Shown here in pieces: positions 14,642 through 19,330 of a stretch of 53,891 nt of DNA. Both the position numbers and the translations under genes were made by a program. How positions within the stretch are numbered: the stretch's first letter is position 1; every line of letters begins with the position of its first letter. Where the stretch lies: contig JAWWCR010000004.1 of assembly GCA_033720355.1 (NCBI GenBank), positions 1-53,891 on the forward strand, given 5' to 3'. The stretch is from Gemmatimonadota bacterium. GTDB taxonomy: Bacteria > Gemmatimonadota > Gemmatimonadetes > Palauibacterales > Palauibacteraceae. The notes under the pieces are model-generated. The model was not told where the DNA came from. It searched no databases and saw nothing but the letters and a program-made list of their open reading frames with translations.

Positions 14642-15655
14642 ATGCAGGAGATCCCCGACGACTGGCTGCGAATCCGGACGATAGACGCCCACGCGGAGGG
14701 CGAGCCGCTGCGGGTGATCATAGAGGGCTTCCCGCATCCCCCGGGTGGGACGGTGCTCGACCGAAGGCGATATGCACGCGAGCACCTCGACGACCTGCGC
14801 CGGGCGCTCATGCTCGAACCGCGCGGACACGCGGACATGTACGGCTGTCTCGTCATGCCTCCCGTTCGGCGGGACTCCGACATCTCGGTCCTGTTCATGC
14901 ACAACGAGGGGTGGTCGACGATGTGCGGGCACGGCGTGATCGCCGCGACCACGACCCTGATCCAGATGGGGATGGCGGACGCGGGAGAGGGATCGATGCT
15001 GACGATCGACACGCCGGCCGGGCGCGTCGAGGCACGGGCGTCGGTGGACGGCGACCGGGTGACGTCGGTCGCCTTTCGCAACGTGCCGTCGTTCGCCGTC
15101 GCGCTCGACGCGACCGTCGATGTGCCCGGGCTGGGGACGGTCCGCTACGACCTGGCGTTCGGGGGTGCGTTCTACGCGTACGCGGACGCCTCGGCGTTGG
15201 GGCTCGACCTCGTCCCCGAGGGCGCCGCCGACCTGATCGCGGCCGGTCGCGCGATCAAGAAGGCCGTGTCCGGCCGCGGGGGCATCGATCACCCGGAGGA
15301 CCCCGAGCTGGGGTTCCTCTACGGGACGATCTTCATCGGCCCGCCCGAGGATGGGGAACGGCACTCGCGGCACGTGTGCATCTTCGCCGACGGCGAAGTC
15401 GATCGGAGCCCCACGGGAACGGGTGTGAGCGGTCGTCTCGCGATCCTGCGCGAGCGCGGCGAGCTGGGCGATGAGCCCATCGAGATCGAGAGCATCGTCG
15501 GCGGCCGCTTCTCGGGTCGGATCGTCGATTCCGCGTCGGTGGGCCCCTATCGAGCGGTGATCCCCGAGATCGGCGGTCGCGCGTTCGTGACGGGCAGGCA
15601 CGAGTTCCTCATCGATCCGGAAGACCCCTGGAGGCGCGGCTTCCTGATACGGTGA
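14642..15655 (+). CDS. Proline racemase superfamily, probable trans-3-hydroxy-L-proline dehydratase
   Basis: IDAHAEGEP, EPRGH, MCGHG, DRSPTGTG (Cys/Thr catalytic pair rather than Cys/Cys). Confidence 0.88.
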   Translation: MQEIPDDWLRIRTIDAHAEGEPLRVIIEGFPHPPGGTVLDRRRYAREHLDDLRRALMLEPRGHADMYGCLVMPPVRRDSDISVLFMHNEGWSTMCGHGVIAATTTLIQMGMADAGEGSMLTIDTPAGRVEARASVDGDRVTSVAFRNVPSFAVALDATVDVPGLGTVRYDLAFGGAFYAYADASALGLDLVPEGAADLIAAGRAIKKAVSGRGGIDHPEDPELGFLYGTIFIGPPEDGERHSRHVCIFADGEVDRSPTGTGVSGRLAILRERGELGDEPIEIESIVGGRFSGRIVDSASVGPYRAVIPEIGGRAFVTGRHEFLIDPEDPWRRGFLIR

Positions 15656-15719
15656 GGACGCCGGCGGCCACAGGTGTGTGCCGCCGACCCCTCGTCAGCC
15701 GCGGATGTCGCGAGCCCGG

Positions 15720-16118
15720 TCAGTCGCCTCCATCCACCGGCGGCATCATGGTCATGATGGCCGCGCCGCCCGTCGAGTCGAGACACTCGCCCTCGTAGGA
15801 CCCGTCGTCCTGGTGCTGAAGGGCGCAGCTGATCGACTGGCCGATGTCGAAGGTGAACACGAGCGTCCCGCCGTCGACCATGGGCTCGGACGTCGGGACC
15901 GTCGACATCCCCGCCTCGGGCGGGGGGATCAGATCGATGACGAGGGCGTCGTCGACGTAGCTGACGTCGTACTGGAGGTCGAACACCTCGCCGTTGGGGT
16001 CGATGACGGTTCCGGTCCACATCCCGGCCTCGAGCTCGTCCTGCGCCGCGACCGGGCCGGCGAGAACGAAGGCGAGGACCGGCAGGGGCAGAACTCTGGC
16101 AAAACGTCGAATCGACAT
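15720..16118 (-). CDS. Secreted hypothetical beta-rich protein
   Basis: RBS AGGAGA; signal peptide ending VAA-Q; GxWxG motif; acidic mature part with one Cys pair. Confidence 0.75.
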   Translation of the reverse strand: MSIRRFARVLPLPVLAFVLAGPVAAQDELEAGMWTGTVIDPNGEVFDLQYDVSYVDDALVIDLIPPPEAGMSTVPTSEPMVDGGTLVFTFDIGQSISCALQHQDDGSYEGECLDSTGGAAIMTMMPPVDGGD

Positions 16119-16232
16119 ATCTTCTCCTGTTCGCGAACCGCGCGATCGTCCGTTCGAGGACGTCGCTCCACATGCGGATTCTACGTTGGCCGAAGCGATC
16201 GTGTTTCGTCCAGAGCGCTGTCAGGAGAATCG

Positions 16233-16811
16233 ATGCCACGGATCCGAACGATCGACCCGGATGACGCCGGGGGCCCGCTCGAACGCGAATACTCGGCGGC
16301 GATCGCGCGGGCGGGTCGCGTGTTCAACATCGTCAGCCTCCAGAGCCTTAACCCGCCGGTCCTGCGGGCCGGGATTCGGCTCTACCGGGCCCTGATGCTC
16401 GGGCCGGGGCCGCTCGGTCGCCGCGAGCGCGAGATGCTGGCCACGGTGACGGCGAGAGAGCTCGACTGCTTCTACTGAACCGAGGCGCACGGGGAGGATC
16501 TCCGTGCCGTCACCGGTGACCCCGAGCTGGCCCGAGCCGTGAAGCGCGATTACCGGAAGGCCGGGCTGGATGATGCGACCCACGCGTTGATGGCCTATGC
16601 CGTTCTGGTGACCAGGTCGCCCGGTGCGGTGACGGACGAGACGATCGACGGGTTGCGCGCGCACGGCTGGGACGACGCGGAGATCCTCACCGCAACCGAG
16701 ATCATCGGCTTCTTCAACTACTACGTGCGACTGGCCGAGGCCCTCGCGATCGAGCCGGAGGACTTCATGGTGCGGGATCCGGAGGTGTGGCCCGACGAGA
16801 CCGGTCAATAG
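16233..16811 (+). CDS. AhpD-like/carboxymuconolactone decarboxylase family peroxidase, probable selenoprotein (TGA 16476-16478 = Sec)
   Basis: ATG 16233 after AGGAGA. REMLATVTARELDCFY-TGA-TEAHG continues in frame without another stop to TAG 16811; the C-terminal half (LRAHGWDDAEI...FNYYVRLA) is typical of the family. Confidence 0.85.
16479..16512 (+). promoter_or_regulatory. Candidate bacterial SECIS element
   Basis: Directly 3' of the TGA: GCAC-GG-GGAG-GAT-CTCC-GTGC hairpin (16487-16507) with a G-initiated apical loop. Confidence 0.7.
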
Positions 16812-16861
16812 GCTGCGGATCTCGCCGGCCCCCTCGTCGTCGTCGCGCCGGTCCGACCGGC

Positions 16862-19330
16862 TTAGCCGCCTCGCCCCCCGCGCCCGCCCGCGCGCCCGGC
16901 GCGCGAGCCCCCGGACCGTCCCGACGACCGTGAGGCTCCCGAGCTGCGCGAGGGCCCCGACGAGCGGGTGGCGCCCGAGCTTCGGGACGGGCCGGACGAC
17001 CGCGACGCGCCCGAGCTGCGCGATGGCCCCGAGGAGCCTCTGACGGCCGGGCCCGATCGCGACGCCCCGCTCGATCGGACCGTGGGCCGGGAGCCGCCGC
17101 TGCTGCGGACGGTCGGCCGCGACGAGGTGCCGCTCGATCTGACGGTCGGCCGCGACGAGGTGCCGCTCGATCTGACGGTCGGCCGCGAGGAGTTGCCGCT
17201 CGACCTCACGGTCGGCCGCGACGAGCTGCCGCTCGATCTGACGGTCGGCCGTGACCGCGTCGTCGCGCCGCTGGATCCGACCGTCGGTCGGGAGCTGCTG
17301 CTCCGCAAGGTCGCGCGGTCGGAGGTCGTACCGGATGACCCGCTGCTTCGGACCGTCGGACGGCTGGCGGTCGCACCCGACGATCCGCCGGACCTCAGGG
17401 TCGACCGCGAGCCGCTGCTGCGAACAGTCGGTCTCGAGCTTTCGGTGACCGGGCCCGTCGGCCGCCGGAGCGTCGCCCCCGTCGTCGAGCGCGACCGCAC
17501 CTCCGGCGTTCGCACGTCCGCCGCGCTGCGACCGGTCGAGCGCGCCGTACCGGCCGCGTCGCGGCCCAGCTCGGGACGTCGGATCGTCGGGTCGGCGGCT
17601 CGCGCCTGACCCGAGGCGGAGCCGGGGCGTCGAAGCGTCGCATCCGGGCTCGCCGGCGACGTACGGACGTCTGCCGTCGTCGGAGGCGCCCGACCCGCGG
17701 AGCGCACGGCGCCGGTCGCGTCGCGTGCGATCGTCGGACGCCCGTTTACCGGCGTCGCCGTCTCGACGCCCGCTCGTCCTGCCTCGTCCGTCCGTCCCGC
17801 ACCGACCGCTCTTCCGGCCACCCCGCCAGACGAGCGGGTGTCGGTCGCGGCGACGCGGGATGTACCGCTCCGGTCGCGGAGCGTCACGCGCTCGAGCGAG
17901 CTCGAGAGCCCGTCGGACCGGTCCGCGAAGGGCGTCGCGTCGCCCAGCTCGCGTCCGTCGGGGCCCGCCTGCCGCGTGAGCCTCGCGAGACCCTCGCCGG
18001 GACGCCGCCAGACGTCGGGTCGGAGCTCTCGAGTGTCGGTCGTGATCACGCCGCGGCCGAGCGAGTGACCGCGCCGCGACAGCTCCTCGCCGCTCAGGGC
18101 GTAGATGTGCTGGTTGCGGTGGCCGAGACGATCGGTGCGGGCGAACGTCCAGTAGCGGTTCTTGTCGTACCACGACGAGCCGCGTGCGTAACCGTATACG
18201 CCGTTGTAGTAGCCCCACGACGACCCGTAGTACGGACCGTAGTGCGACACGTAGTAGCCGGTCGGGCACCAGCCGGCGTACCCGCCCGCGCCCCAGTAGA
18301 AGTAAACGTGCGCGGGTGCGAACGAGTAGCCGGGATACCACACCCAGCCCCAGGAGTAGTGGTAGTCCCAGTACCCGTAGTGGTGGGGGACCCAGCCCCA
18401 GGGGTCGTACGAGACCCAGAACCAGCCGGTGGGCGTGTAGCGCCACCGGCCGTGCCGGTAGGGCGCCCACCCGACGCTGACGTACGGCCGCCAGGCCCAC
18501 GAGGCCCCGACGGCCACCCATGTCCCGTTCTCGGCGAGCGGTGCGGCGGCGTACTGGAGGTCGTCGTCAACGTACTCGGCATAGCGCCCTGCGGAATATT
18601 CGTCGAGGCCATCGCCCCACGCCTCGAGGTCGTCGAGGCTGGGCGCGGCCGCGAACTGGAAGGCGGCGTTGCGCCCGCCGTCCACGAACAGCGCCTCGCC
18701 CTGCCTGACCTCGGCCCCATCCGACTCGGTGCGAACCTCCGCGCGCCCCTCGCGAACGACGACTTCCGAGTACTGGTCGCTGTCCACCACGACGAGGTAG
18801 AGCCCGGGCTCGGTGAACTCGATCGACGCGTTCGGAGTGCGGACGGTCGGGACGCCCTGGCCCAACCGCTCGCGAACGACCACGATCTGGGCCGTTCCGC
18901 GACTCAGGTCGAGGATCGTCGTCGGGTCGTTCGCATCGGCCGAGTTGGCCAGAGCGATGAAGCCGAGGTCGCCTCCACGCCCGAGCCGGACGAGGTTGCG
19001 GTCGGCCAGCAGGATCTCGGCCTTCGAGTCGCCCGAGACGAAGAGCCGGTCGCCGACGAGCACGGGTTCGTTCGTCCGTACCTGGACGCGTTCTCCGCCC
19101 GGCTGGACGAGGGTCGCCGAGCCGTCGAGCGTGCGTACGTAGCCGTACGCACCCTGAACGCTCGCACCCGGTCCGGCCTGGTCATAGTCGAACGGCGGGG
19201 GGTCCTGCTGCGCGGCGAGACCGGACGCCCAGAAAGCGACCAGCCCCACCAGCAGGCCCGTCCGTGCCCCTTCCGCCCGTCCGCCCGGGCGGGACCGCGT
19301 CGCTTCGTGCGCAACCATCGATGACTCCAT
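16862..19330 (-). CDS. Secreted FecR-like + DUF6600-type protein with a long Ser/Arg/Gly-rich tail
   Basis: Signal peptide; FecR-like VRTPNAS..VVVREGRAEV; W/Y/P/G-rich WAPYRHGRW..PWGWVPHHYGYW; repetitive basic C-terminus. Confidence 0.85.
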   Translation of the reverse strand: MESSMVAHEATRSRPGGRAEGARTGLLVGLVAFWASGLAAQQDPPPFDYDQAGPGASVQGAYGYVRTLDGSATLVQPGGERVQVRTNEPVLVGDRLFVSGDSKAEILLADRNLVRLGRGGDLGFIALANSADANDPTTILDLSRGTAQIVVVRERLGQGVPTVRTPNASIEFTEPGLYLVVVDSDQYSEVVVREGRAEVRTESDGAEVRQGEALFVDGGRNAAFQFAAAPSLDDLEAWGDGLDEYSAGRYAEYVDDDLQYAAAPLAENGTWVAVGASWAWRPYVSVGWAPYRHGRWRYTPTGWFWVSYDPWGWVPHHYGYWDYHYSWGWVWYPGYSFAPAHVYFYWGAGGYAGWCPTGYYVSHYGPYYGSSWGYYNGVYGYARGSSWYDKNRYWTFARTDRLGHRNQHIYALSGEELSRRGHSLGRGVITTDTRELRPDVWRRPGEGLARLTRQAGPDGRELGDATPFADRSDGLSSSLERVTLRDRSGTSRVAATDTRSSGGVAGRAVGAGRTDEAGRAGVETATPVNGRPTIARDATGAVRSAGRAPPTTADVRTSPASPDATLRRPGSASGQARAADPTIRRPELGRDAAGTARSTGRSAADVRTPEVRSRSTTGATLRRPTGPVTESSRPTVRSSGSRSTLRSGGSSGATASRPTVRSSGSSGTTSDRATLRSSSSRPTVGSSGATTRSRPTVRSSGSSSRPTVRSSGNSSRPTVRSSGTSSRPTVRSSGTSSRPTVRSSGGSRPTVRSSGASRSGPAVRGSSGPSRSSGASRSSGPSRSSGATRSSGPSRSSGASRSSGRSGGSRAGRAGGRGGRGG
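17078..17250 (-). repeat. Intragenic 33-bp tandem repeat encoding (SSRPTVRSSGx)n
   Basis: Units start at 17108, 17141, 17174, 17207 and 17240 (GACGGTCGGCCGCGACGAGGTGCCGCTCGATCT), with degenerate flanking copies. Confidence 0.9.

What the first reader, a model, noticed from the sequence alone, without database searches (positions are those of the whole stretch)
16233..16811. Hidden selenoprotein: AhpD-like peroxidase with CxxU and a SECIS-like hairpin
Seen: two ORF-track fragments are one frame joined by a single TGA at 16476 (C-F-Y-TGA-T-E-A-H), followed by a hairpin GCAC-GG-GGAG-GAT-CTCC-GTGC. Established: AhpD/CMD proteins use CxxCxxxH; the TGA sits exactly at the second Cys; AhpD-like selenoproteins are known; bacterial SECIS elements lie immediately 3' of UGA. 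Inference: a 192-aa Sec-containing protein that pipelines would split or call a pseudogene, implying a Sec-decoding trait in this organism.
Basis: partly seen in the sequence, partly recalled or inferred. Interest (0 to 1): 0.78.

Follow-up and report, generated by a model that had tools for sequence, protein, structure and literature searches.

The report
AhpD-like selenoprotein gene, known family
This is a real gene for a small antioxidant-type enzyme that uses selenocysteine, encoded by an in-frame TGA, in place of its reactive cysteine; it belongs to a selenoprotein family described since 2005, so it is correct but ordinary.

Summary
One frame runs from ATG 16233 to TAG 16811 (192 aa), with a single TGA at 16476-16478 inside C-F-Y-U-T-E-A-H. 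A 9-bp hairpin with loop GGA follows 8 nt later.

The protein scores above the cut-off for NCBIfam TIGR01926 "peroxidase-related enzyme". It aligns with solved Cys homologues that carry CxxC at this site.

The TGA sits at the same codon in all 21 orthologues (57-75% identity to the window's protein) and in 30 of 31 matches in a 121-genome phylum sample. Cys forms exist and lack the hairpin.

Five of the six hairpin codons are frozen to one codon in all 21 orthologues, including the rare GAT and CGT. All 42 distinct TGA sites examined in the family have such a hairpin, against 7.1% of control codons.

The genome has selA, selB, selD and tRNA-Sec. TGA is its main stop codon.

However, "AhpD-like protein, CxxU, TIGR01926" is a listed selenoprotein family (PMC1088965, PMC2398784, PMC13188914). 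This is a new member of a known kind, and interest is low.

The parts
16223..16227 (+). Shine-Dalgarno-like AGGAG, 5 nt before the start codon
   Evidence: Read directly. The start is supported by all 21 orthologues beginning M-P-[HRY]-I exactly 81 codons before the TGA (output).
16233..16811 (+). Coding sequence of a 192-aa AhpD-like (TIGR01926) selenoprotein, stop TAG 16809-16811
   Evidence: translation. TIGR01926 125.6 bits, cut-off 81.8. Pfam CMD 34.3 bits, cut-off 23. PDB homologues, E 5.7e-26 to 4.6e-18; predicted fold matches 2pfx, 3c1l, 6k40, 2oyo and 2prr.
16431..16433 (+). Glu67 codon (GAG), the proton-relay Glu, 15 residues before Sec82
   Evidence: Invariant in 21 orthologues and aligned to the Glu of E-R-E-M in 2pfx. 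The spacing E-12-C-xx-C-xxx-H equals that of MtAhpD E118/C130/C133/H137 and PA0269 E36/C48/C51/H55 (passages of PMC3141380).
16467..16469 (+). Cys79 codon (TGC), first residue of CxxU, the presumed resolving Cys
   Evidence: TGC 18, TGT 3 of 21 orthologues.
16476..16478 (+). TGA read as selenocysteine (U82), at the place of the second, attacking Cys of CxxC
   Evidence: TGA in 21 of 21 orthologues. Aligned to Cys in P0002/P0003 and in PDB homologues.
16487..16507 (+). SECIS-like hairpin inside the coding sequence: stem 16487-16495 with 16499-16507, loop GGA 16496-16498. It overlies codons A85-H86-G87-E88-D89-L90-R91-A92.
   Evidence: 9 bp, loop starts 17 nt after the TGA; codons H86 CAC, E88 GAG, D89 GAT, L90 CTC and R91 CGT are invariant in 21 orthologues; 84.8% of cells paired, against 29.9-47.8% when slid.
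16488..16490 (+). His86 codon (CAC), the His of CxxUxxxH
   Evidence: Aligned to the His in 2pfx, 2oyo and 3c1l.

Best explanation
Window 16233-16811 (+) is an intact gene for a 192-aa selenoprotein of the AhpD-like / "peroxidase-related enzyme" family (TIGR01926, CMD fold). UGA 16476-16478 is decoded as selenocysteine by SelB with Sec-tRNA(Sec). It is directed there by a stem-loop that begins 8 nt downstream inside the coding sequence (16487-16507, small loop starting with G). Sec82 replaces the second, exposed Cys of the CxxC redox motif. Together with Cys79, Tyr81, His86 and Glu67 it rebuilds the AhpD proton-relay site. Inferred mechanism: the selenolate of U82 attacks an oxidised partner, forming a selenenylsulfide. 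That partner is a peroxiredoxin sulfenate or disulfide as for AhpD with AhpC, or a hydroperoxide directly. Cys79 then resolves the intermediate into an intramolecular Se-S bond, and a cellular thiol reductant reduces it again. Shown here: the gene is intact and under selection on both sides of the UGA, the UGA and the hairpin are conserved, the Sec machinery is present, and the family and fold are as stated. Inferred: Se incorporation itself, the chemistry, the partner, and the physiological role in peroxide or oxidative-stress defence. The confidence given is for the shown core (a genuine Sec-encoding AhpD-like gene); the peroxide-defence role alone I would put near 0.6.
For: Family: TIGR01926 125.6 bits against a cut-off of 81.8. 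PDB Cys homologues 2pfx, 2oyo, 3c1l, 6k40 and 2prr match at E 5.7e-26 to 4.6e-18, with CxxC..H aligned to CFYU..H. The AF2 model has mean pLDDT 81.1, and its best Foldseek hits are the same entries. TGA conservation: 21 of 21 orthologues (the window plus 20 of 24 sampled same-genus genomes; the 20 are 57-75% identical to the window's protein) have CFY-TGA-TE[AS]H. In the related-genome search, 60 of 67 family matches carry a TGA. In a phylum sample, 30 of 31 matches at E<=1e-25 in 121 genomes do. Translation continues past the TGA: 43 amino-acid columns downstream and 41 upstream are invariant in the 21 orthologues while their codons vary. Sec/Cys pair: P0002 and P0003 (62% identical) have CFYC. 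Cys forms L058, L066 and L076 have TGT/TGC and no hairpin, 0 of 3. Hairpin: of 78 degenerate invariant-residue columns, only 8 use one codon in all 21 orthologues, and 5 of those 8 are hairpin codons. These include GAT (24% of Asp codons genome-wide) and CGT (9.9% of Arg codons). All 42 distinct TGA sites examined have a perfect stem of at least 6 bp, with a G in the first two loop bases and the loop starting 16-24 nt after the UGA. The rate at other in-frame codons of the same genes is 391 of 5538 (7.1%). The stems fall into about eight different sequences. Machinery in the same genome: selD 254.4 bits, selA 505.6 bits, selB 336.1 bits and tRNA-Sec 81.2 bits, all above cut-off, and ARAGORN calls tRNA-SeC with anticodon TCA. 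TGA is the ordinary stop in 950 of 1379 long ORFs. Active-site logic: the relay residues and their spacing match MtAhpD and PA0269 (passages of PMC3141380). In MtAhpD it is the second Cys, Cys133, that bonds to AhpC Cys61 (passage of PMC6626918). The family is listed as a selenoprotein family: AhpD-like, CxxU, COG2128/TIGR01926 (passages of PMC1088965, PMC2398784 and PMC13188914).
Against: There is no direct evidence of selenium in the protein. No expression data were examined. On the window sequence alone the hairpin is not significant (z -0.95; z -1.2 to -2.7). RNAalifold on the 38-row alignment did not recover the hairpin, because homologues carry it in different registers. True compensatory changes at fixed columns are few: 5 cells in 2 pairs, and the count of pairs with a change on both sides is no better than shuffles (320 of 500). 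In the wider phylum sample, 3 of 13 located TGA sites failed the strict hairpin rule. One of these has a 6-bp stem with a CUC loop and one only a 5-bp stem; the third was not looked at further. The related genomes are kin, so counts overstate independence. No Rfam family matched. No peroxiredoxin or reductase gene is adjacent. The conserved neighbours are a proline-racemase-family gene and a DUF6600 gene, so the partner and the role are guesses from homology. PA0269 showed only weak peroxidase activity (passage of PMC3141380).
Confidence: 0.9

Rival explanations
1. The protein is a real selenoprotein of the AhpD-like fold, but its physiological job is not peroxide or peroxiredoxin reduction. 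It could be another CxxC-type redox reaction, for example reduction of some other disulfide or small molecule, or a reductive dehalogenation as in the CMD-fold debrominase Bmp8.
For: No TIGR01926-type protein has a defined substrate in the passages I saw; the PDB titles read "uncharacterized peroxidase-related protein". PA0269 has only weak peroxidase activity, and substrate sites are unknown across the family (passages of PMC3141380). Foldseek also matches Bmp8 debrominase 6ohi/6ohj at E 3e-4. There is no peroxiredoxin next to the gene; the conserved neighbours are Pro_racemase and DUF6600 genes.
Against: All five proton-relay positions of AhpD are kept with identical spacing. The closest named solved relative is deposited as an alkyl hydroperoxide reductase AhpD (6k40). 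The genome also holds candidate Sec-containing AhpC/TSA and OsmC proteins, a peroxide-defence set.
Confidence: 0.25
2. The TGA is a nonsense mutation or an assembly error, and the gene is a pseudogene or two fragments.
For: Under table 11 the frame is split into two ORFs. The genome is a fragmented assembly of 284 contigs, 89.7% complete.
Against: The same TGA is at the same codon in 21 of 21 orthologues from different species-level genomes, several of them single-contig assemblies. Amino-acid conservation with synonymous variation continues for 43 invariant columns after the TGA. The single predicted domain spans the TGA.
Confidence: 0.01
3. TGA is read as an ordinary amino acid (Trp or Gly, as in codes 4 and 25) or by near-cognate readthrough, without selenocysteine.
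For: Three database homologues carry W at this site (P0004, P0005, P0009). This shows that some gene callers applied a TGA=W code.
Against: TGA ends 950 of 1379 long high-GC3 ORFs in this genome. The site is the catalytic Cys position, where Cys is the only alternative seen. A complete selA/selB/selD/tRNA-Sec set is present. A hairpin under synonymous constraint follows the codon, which ordinary sense decoding would not need.
Confidence: 0.02

Closest known systems
"AhpD-like protein" selenoprotein family (CxxU; COG2128 / TIGR01926). First reported from the Sargasso Sea metagenome in 2005 with 27 sequences; called "AhpD-like 1" in the GOS analysis with 299 sequences; listed in a 2026 review.
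   Same: Same HMM family, same CxxU motif with Sec at the second position, a SECIS hairpin directly after the UGA with a G in a small loop, and widespread Cys homologues. Sources: passages of PMC1088965, PMC2398784 and PMC13188914.
   Different: Nothing in kind. This copy lies in a 69.7% G+C genome whose nearest named relative is a Gemmatimonadota MAG. The selenoprotein papers I opened do not mention that phylum: 0 occurrences of 'gemmatimonad' in PMC13188914 and PMC13326102. Their supplements could not be seen.
Solved Cys homologues: 2pfx (Silicibacter sp. TM1040), 2oyo (Deinococcus geothermalis), 3c1l (Mesorhizobium loti Mlr4105), 6k40 (Deinococcus radiodurans AhpD), 2prr
   Same: About 190 aa and an all-helical fold. 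The E-R-E-M ... C-x-Y-C-x-x-x-H-G active-site stretch aligns residue for residue. Foldseek TM is 0.68-0.69 with 26-33% identity.
   Different: They have Cys where this protein has Sec. Most are structural-genomics entries without a defined substrate.
Mycobacterium tuberculosis AhpD (1knc) and Pseudomonas aeruginosa PA0269 (2o4d/2ijc)
   Same: The same proton-relay set with the same spacing: MtAhpD E118, C130, H132, C133, H137; PA0269 E36, C48, Y50, C51, H55; here E67, C79, Y81, U82, H86. Source: passages of PMC3141380. In MtAhpD the second Cys is the one that bonds to AhpC (passage of PMC6626918).
   Different: Distant in sequence and topology: 1knc is Foldseek rank 50 at E 0.099, and 2o4d matches at E 0.0017 by sequence. 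They use Cys, not Sec. MtAhpD is encoded next to ahpC, and this gene is not.
NCBIfam NF041238 AhpD_rel_CFYUT, "alkylhydroperoxidase-related (seleno)protein" (hypothetical protein 1 of the Sargasso Sea)
   Same: It shares the literal C-F-Y-U-T motif and the CMD-type C-terminal half (passage of PMC13188914).
   Different: That profile is 357 positions long. This protein matches only positions 218-342, at 38.1 bits against a cut-off of 175, so it is not a member.

Membership tests
Bacterial selenoprotein gene (SelB/SECIS-dependent UGA decoding) | In-frame TGA inside a conserved ORF, with protein-level conservation on both sides | tested here: met
   TGA in 21 of 21 orthologues, with 41 invariant residue columns before it and 43 after it, and synonymous variation.
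Bacterial selenoprotein gene (SelB/SECIS-dependent UGA decoding) | Homologues with Cys aligned to the TGA (Sec/Cys pair) | tested here: met
   (P0002, P0003: CFYC). (2pfx, 2oyo, 3c1l: CxxC). (L058 TGT, L066 TGC, L076 TGC).
Bacterial selenoprotein gene (SelB/SECIS-dependent UGA decoding) | Stem-loop just downstream of the UGA with a small apical loop containing G (as described in PMC1088965; the numeric spacing rule of bSECISearch is recalled, not seen) | tested here: met
   42 of 42 distinct TGA sites, against 7.1% background; frozen synonymous sites; 84.8% paired against 30-48% when slid. Weaker points: RNAalifold failed; 10 of 13 further sites pass the strict rule. bSECISearch itself was not run.
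Bacterial selenoprotein gene (SelB/SECIS-dependent UGA decoding) | selA, selB, selC (tRNA-Sec) and selD in the same genome | tested here: met
   all four above the curated cut-offs; tRNA-SeC anticodon TCA.
Bacterial selenoprotein gene (SelB/SECIS-dependent UGA decoding) | Selenium actually incorporated at the UGA | not testable with these tools
   Needs 75Se labelling or mass spectrometry.
AhpD-like / TIGR01926 peroxidase-related enzyme | Score above the curated HMM cut-off over the whole profile | tested here: met
   125.6 bits against 81.8, profile positions 2-177 of 178. One search gives the same from DNA (117.8 bits).
AhpD-like / TIGR01926 peroxidase-related enzyme | Proton-relay residues Glu, Cys-x-x-Cys and His with AhpD spacing (PMC3141380) | tested here: met
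   E67, C79, Y81, U82 and H86, with Sec in place of the second Cys.
AhpD-like / TIGR01926 peroxidase-related enzyme | All-helical AhpD/CMD fold | tested here: met
   eight helices, block-mean pLDDT 91-98 over residues 51-160; 2pfx E 1.2e-9, TM 0.69.
AhpD-like / TIGR01926 peroxidase-related enzyme | Peroxidase or AhpC-reducing activity | not testable with these tools
   Needs an enzyme assay. No adjacent ahpC.
NF041238 AhpD_rel_CFYUT | Score above the curated cut-off (175 bits) over the 357-position profile | tested here: not met
   38.1 bits, profile positions 218-342 only.
Gamma-carboxymuconolactone decarboxylase proper | A CMD-fold enzyme without the CxxC proton-relay motif (distinction drawn in PMC3141380) | tested here: not met
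   This protein has the CxxU..H relay. The Pfam CMD hit reflects the shared fold only.

The most novel reading that the evidence does not exclude
In this Gemmatimonadota-like lineage the AhpD-like family is almost entirely Sec-dependent (30 of 31 matches in a 121-genome phylum sample) and has diversified into several Sec paralogues per genome. One of them (G000:C7:36913-37485, motif G-G-A-P-U-L-G-L-H) has lost the first Cys of CxxU, yet keeps the TGA, the His and a downstream hairpin in two species. If that paralogue is functional, it would be a single-selenol AhpD-like enzyme that cannot form the intramolecular Se-S bond. It would have to work by a one-Sec mechanism with an external thiol. 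I did not see such a variant among the motifs listed for AhpD-like selenoproteins in the passages I read.
Probability: 0.2. Interest if true: 0.35.

Novelty: new member of a known kind. Interest (0 to 1): 0.2.

Why it matters
The main value is annotation. A table-11 gene caller splits or truncates this gene, and homologues in the protein database are in fact stored as fragments or with W at the site. Calling it correctly restores an intact redox enzyme. It also flags the organism and its genus as selenium users with a multi-member, peroxide-defence-type selenoproteome: three AhpD-like, one AhpC/TSA and two OsmC candidates in this genome. It adds no new kind of system. The family, the motif and the decoding mechanism are all in print.

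Tried and rejected
- Rfam, gathering threshold on the whole window and E<=10 on 16400-16600: only chance-level hits to a miRNA and a snoRNA model, and no SECIS family.
- Single-sequence fold against dinucleotide shuffles: not significant, z -0.95.
- Synonymous recoding of the window sequence with the genome's codon usage: modest (z -1.6, -2.67, -1.19), so not decisive alone.
- RNAalifold on the 38 TGA-anchored segments: it returned a meaningless 3-pair consensus, because subfamilies carry the hairpin 1, 3 or 7 nt apart in register. I switched to a named-structure count and a per-sequence hairpin rule with a background.
- Promoter and terminator scan of 15600-17000: nothing found.
- Pseudogene, sequencing error, TGA=Trp/Gly code and two-gene readings: rejected (see the rival explanations).
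- NF041238 (CFYUT) membership: rejected on score. The sestrin PA26 hit of 20 bits is below its cut-off of 29.4 and reflects the shared fold.
- Paper search for the 6K40 structure: 0 papers.
- Search for Gemmatimonadota plus selenoprotein: 6 papers, none with either term in title or abstract. I saw the listing only.
- Crude genome-wide TGA screen: it is lossy (it missed the target gene itself). Several hits were simply adjacent genes in one frame: ndk/yceD-like at C56, rhodanese/SOD at C34 and ATP synthase a/c at C209, judged by eye.
- Supplements of the selenoprotein papers were not available. They may list this lineage or the GAPU variant.

Full report
**1. What is in the sequence**

One search shows ATG at 16233, preceded by AGGAG at 16223-16227, and a TAG at 16809-16811.

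Directly after the TGA lies a perfect hairpin. Its stem is 16487-16495 with 16499-16507 (9 bp, one G-U) and its loop is GGA at 16496-16498. It starts 8 nt after the TGA.

**2. What the protein is**

- Pfam gives CMD (34.3 bits, cut-off 23).
- NCBIfam gives TIGR01926 "peroxidase-related enzyme" at 125.6 bits against a cut-off of 81.8, over profile positions 2-177 of 178.
- NF041238 (AhpD_rel_CFYUT) shares the literal motif. It is matched at only 38.1 bits against 175, over the C-terminal third of a 357-position profile, so the protein is not a member.
- By sequence it matches the solved proteins 2pfx, 2oyo, 3c1l, 6k40 and 2prr (E 5.7e-26 to 4.6e-18). CFYU-TEAH aligns to CFYC-LVAH, CLYC-AVSH and CYYC-LTAH, and the upstream E-R-E-M is kept.
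- An AlphaFold2 model from a 13-row alignment is all-helical (mean pLDDT 81.1; block means 91-98 over residues 51-160; both termini are poor). Its best Foldseek hits are the same entries, with TM 0.68-0.69.

**3. Is the TGA a real sense codon?**

- In 41 related genomes, 38 had a family match.
- The 20 best matches from other species of the same genus (57-75% identical to the window's protein) each carry a TGA at the same codon, in CFY-TGA-TE[AS]H. The other 4 of the 24 sampled genomes of the genus had no match at orthologue level. Their completeness is 85-93%.
- All 21 orthologues start M-P-[HRY]-I exactly 81 codons before the TGA (output).
- Of 196 aligned columns, 85 have an invariant residue: 41 before the TGA, the TGA itself, and 43 after it. 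Most show synonymous codon variation. The part after the TGA is therefore under protein-level selection.
- Of all 67 matches, 60 contain a TGA. Several of the 7 without one are partial matches that do not span the site.
- In an even sample of 121 genomes of the phylum, 28 genomes had a match at E<=1e-25. Of those 31 matches, 30 contain a TGA. The one exception (L076) is a Cys form, CHYC, with TGC.
- Outside the phylum, an Acidiferrales MAG has the same CFY-TGA-TEAH gene at 63% identity. A Falsiroseomonas genome has a Cys form, CQYC, with TGC.
- In the protein database, full-length relatives P0002 and P0003 (62% identical) have CFYC. P0004, P0005 and P0009 have W at the site. P0006-P0008 start just after the site, and P0014 ends at CFY. 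This is the pattern expected when gene callers meet a Sec codon.

**4. Is the hairpin functional?**

The window sequence alone does not show it. The z-score is -0.95 against shuffles and -1.2 to -2.7 against synonymous recodings. The comparative evidence is strong.

- *Synonymous sites.* Among 78 degenerate columns with an invariant residue, only 8 use a single codon in all 21 orthologues. Five of those 8 are H86 CAC, E88 GAG, D89 GAT, L90 CTC and R91 CGT, which form the hairpin. G87 uses only GGG or GGA, and both pair with U. GAT and CGT are minority codons in this genome, at 24% and 9.9%. Other Asp and Arg columns of the same gene use mostly GAC and CGC/CGG.
- *Named-structure count.* On 38 TGA-anchored segments (32 distinct), the 7-bp core is paired in 84.8% of cells, against 29.9-47.8% when the 3' arm is slid. 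No shuffle out of 500 reaches that value. Compensatory changes at fixed columns are few, 5 cells in 2 pairs.
- *Per-site rule.* The rule asks for a perfect stem of at least 6 bp, a loop of 3-6 nt with G in its first two bases, and a loop start 12-30 nt after the codon. It is met at 42 of 42 distinct TGA sites of the family, against 391 of 5538 (7.1%) other in-frame codons of the same genes. The stems have about eight different sequences, for example ACGGRGA/UCUCCGU, ACGCAGA/UCUGCGU, ACGGAGC/GCUCCGU, CGACCUC/GAGGUCG, CCGCGCU/AGCGCGG and GGCGGCG/CGCCGCC.
- *Cys-form controls.* Three Cys forms have no such hairpin.

Results against:
- RNAalifold failed on the mixed-register alignment.
- In 16 further loci from the phylum sample, 13 TGA sites were located and 10 passed the strict rule. 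Of the three that failed, one has a 6-bp stem with a CUC loop and one only a 5-bp stem. The third was not examined.
- One more locus, found by eye, has a 7-bp hairpin, and one locus was not located.
- The genomes are kin, so these counts are not independent.

**5. Can the organism decode it?**

The assembly (284 contigs, 89.7% complete, 69.7% G+C) carries the full set, all above the curated cut-offs:

| Gene | Place | Bits |
|---|---|---|
| selD | C48 | 254.4 |
| selA | C25 | 505.6 |
| selB | C5 | 336.1 |
| tRNA-Sec | C5, 5.5 kb from selB | 81.2 |

ARAGORN calls the tRNA as tRNA-SeC with anticodon TCA. TGA ends 950 of 1379 long ORFs, so it is not a general sense codon.

The genome holds further candidate Sec genes:
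- Two AhpD-like paralogues, on C199 (CRYUIVHH) and C7 (GGAPULGLH).
- An AhpC/TSA protein with HWUPYC.
- Two OsmC-like proteins with GGU.

**6. How it most likely works**

The AhpD proton relay is E118, C130, H132, C133, H137 in M. tuberculosis and E36, C48, Y50, C51, H55 in PA0269 (passages of PMC3141380). Here the same spacing gives E67, C79, Y81, U82, H86. In MtAhpD the second Cys, Cys133, is exposed and forms the cross-link with AhpC Cys61, while Cys130 is partly buried (passage of PMC6626918). Sec therefore sits at the attacking position, and Cys79 would resolve the intermediate.

I infer a selenolate attack on an oxidised peroxiredoxin or on a hydroperoxide, followed by an intramolecular Se-S bond and re-reduction by a cellular thiol system.

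The partner is unknown. The gene is flanked by a proline-racemase-family gene upstream on the same strand (kept in 17 of 21 related loci) and a convergent DUF6600 gene (kept in 19 of 21). Neither suggests a redox link. In this window a 132-aa ORF on the other strand lies between the racemase-family gene and the target. It is matched in only one of the 21 related loci, L022, which holds the target's closest orthologue.

**7. Comparison with what is known**

- "AhpD-like protein", CxxU, COG2128, was reported as a new selenoprotein family with 27 sequences from the Sargasso Sea in 2005. Its SECIS was drawn there (passages of PMC1088965).
- "AhpD-like 1" was the fourth most numerous family in GOS, with 299 Sec and 902 Cys sequences (passage of PMC2398784).
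- A 2026 review lists "AhpD-like protein, TIGR01926, CxxU" (passage of PMC13188914).
- BSepDB uses the family as its browsing example (passage of PMC13326102).

The present gene meets every testable feature of that family. The only local colour is the lineage. The nearest named relative is a Gemmatimonadota MAG. The two 2026 papers do not mention that phylum in their main text; I could not see their supplements. A search for Gemmatimonadota plus selenoprotein returned 6 papers, none with the terms in title or abstract (listing only).

**8. Verdict**

The gene is a new member of a known kind, and interest is low. The spacing rule of bSECISearch (loop 16-37 nt after the UGA) is recalled from memory and was not seen in any call.

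Noticed in passing
G000:C7:36913-37485 (-) (locus L072; not in the window): An AhpD-like paralogue (TIGR01926 88.7 bits) with motif G-G-A-P-U-L-G-L-H. The TGA and the His are kept but the first Cys of CxxU is missing. A 7-bp hairpin GGCGGCG/CGCCGCC follows 14 nt after the TGA. One orthologue (76% identical) with the same motif, TGA and hairpin was found among 40 related genomes.
   Followed up: partly
G000:C199:3676-4167 (+) (loci L042/L043/L071): A third AhpD-like Sec candidate, C-R-Y-U-I-V-H-H-G-E-G-L-R, with hairpin ACGGGGA-GGG-TCTCCGT. This C[HR]Y-U-I[VL]HH type occurs as a second copy in most genomes of the genus. In one search the open frame contains a second TGA further upstream, which is probably just the stop of the preceding gene.
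   Followed up: partly
G000:C6:15854-16627 (+) (L067): An AhpC/TSA-family protein (Pfam 101.2 bits) with an in-frame TGA in F-Y-R-G-H-W-U-P-Y-C (UxxC) and a 7-bp hairpin after it. It is a candidate Prx-like selenoprotein.
   Followed up: partly
G000:C28:29185-29655 (-) and G000:C138:8783-9247 (-) (L068, L069): Two OsmC-family proteins (Pfam 51.2 and 53 bits) with an in-frame TGA in T-G-G-U-x-x-G-T and 7-bp hairpins downstream. They are candidate OsmC-like selenoproteins.
   Followed up: partly
window 15720-16118 (-): A 132-aa ORF with a hydrophobic N-terminus and no Pfam match. It sits between the proline-racemase-family gene (14642-15655) and the selenoprotein gene. In most related loci those two genes are only about 60-90 nt apart. 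The ORF was matched in only one of the 21 related loci, L022, which holds the target's closest orthologue.
   Followed up: partly
window 16862-19330 (-): An 822-aa DUF6600 protein, convergent with the selenoprotein gene and syntenic in 19 of 21 related loci. Its C-terminal third is a long run of Ser/Arg/Pro/Thr-rich repeats (RPTVRSSG-like).
   Followed up: no
L065 (Acidiferrales MAG contig, 6.5-kb locus): Two AhpD-like Sec genes lie on opposite strands within 6.5 kb: CFY-TGA-TEAH and CHY-TGA-TESH. The first has the same hairpin core as the Gemmatimonadota-like genes, although the host belongs to another phylum and identity is 63%. This would fit horizontal transfer of the gene together with its SECIS.
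   Followed up: no
database proteins P0004, P0005, P0009: These full-length homologues are stored with Trp at the Sec position (CFYW / CYYW). The gene callers evidently applied a TGA=Trp code to contigs that in fact carry a Sec codon.
   Followed up: no
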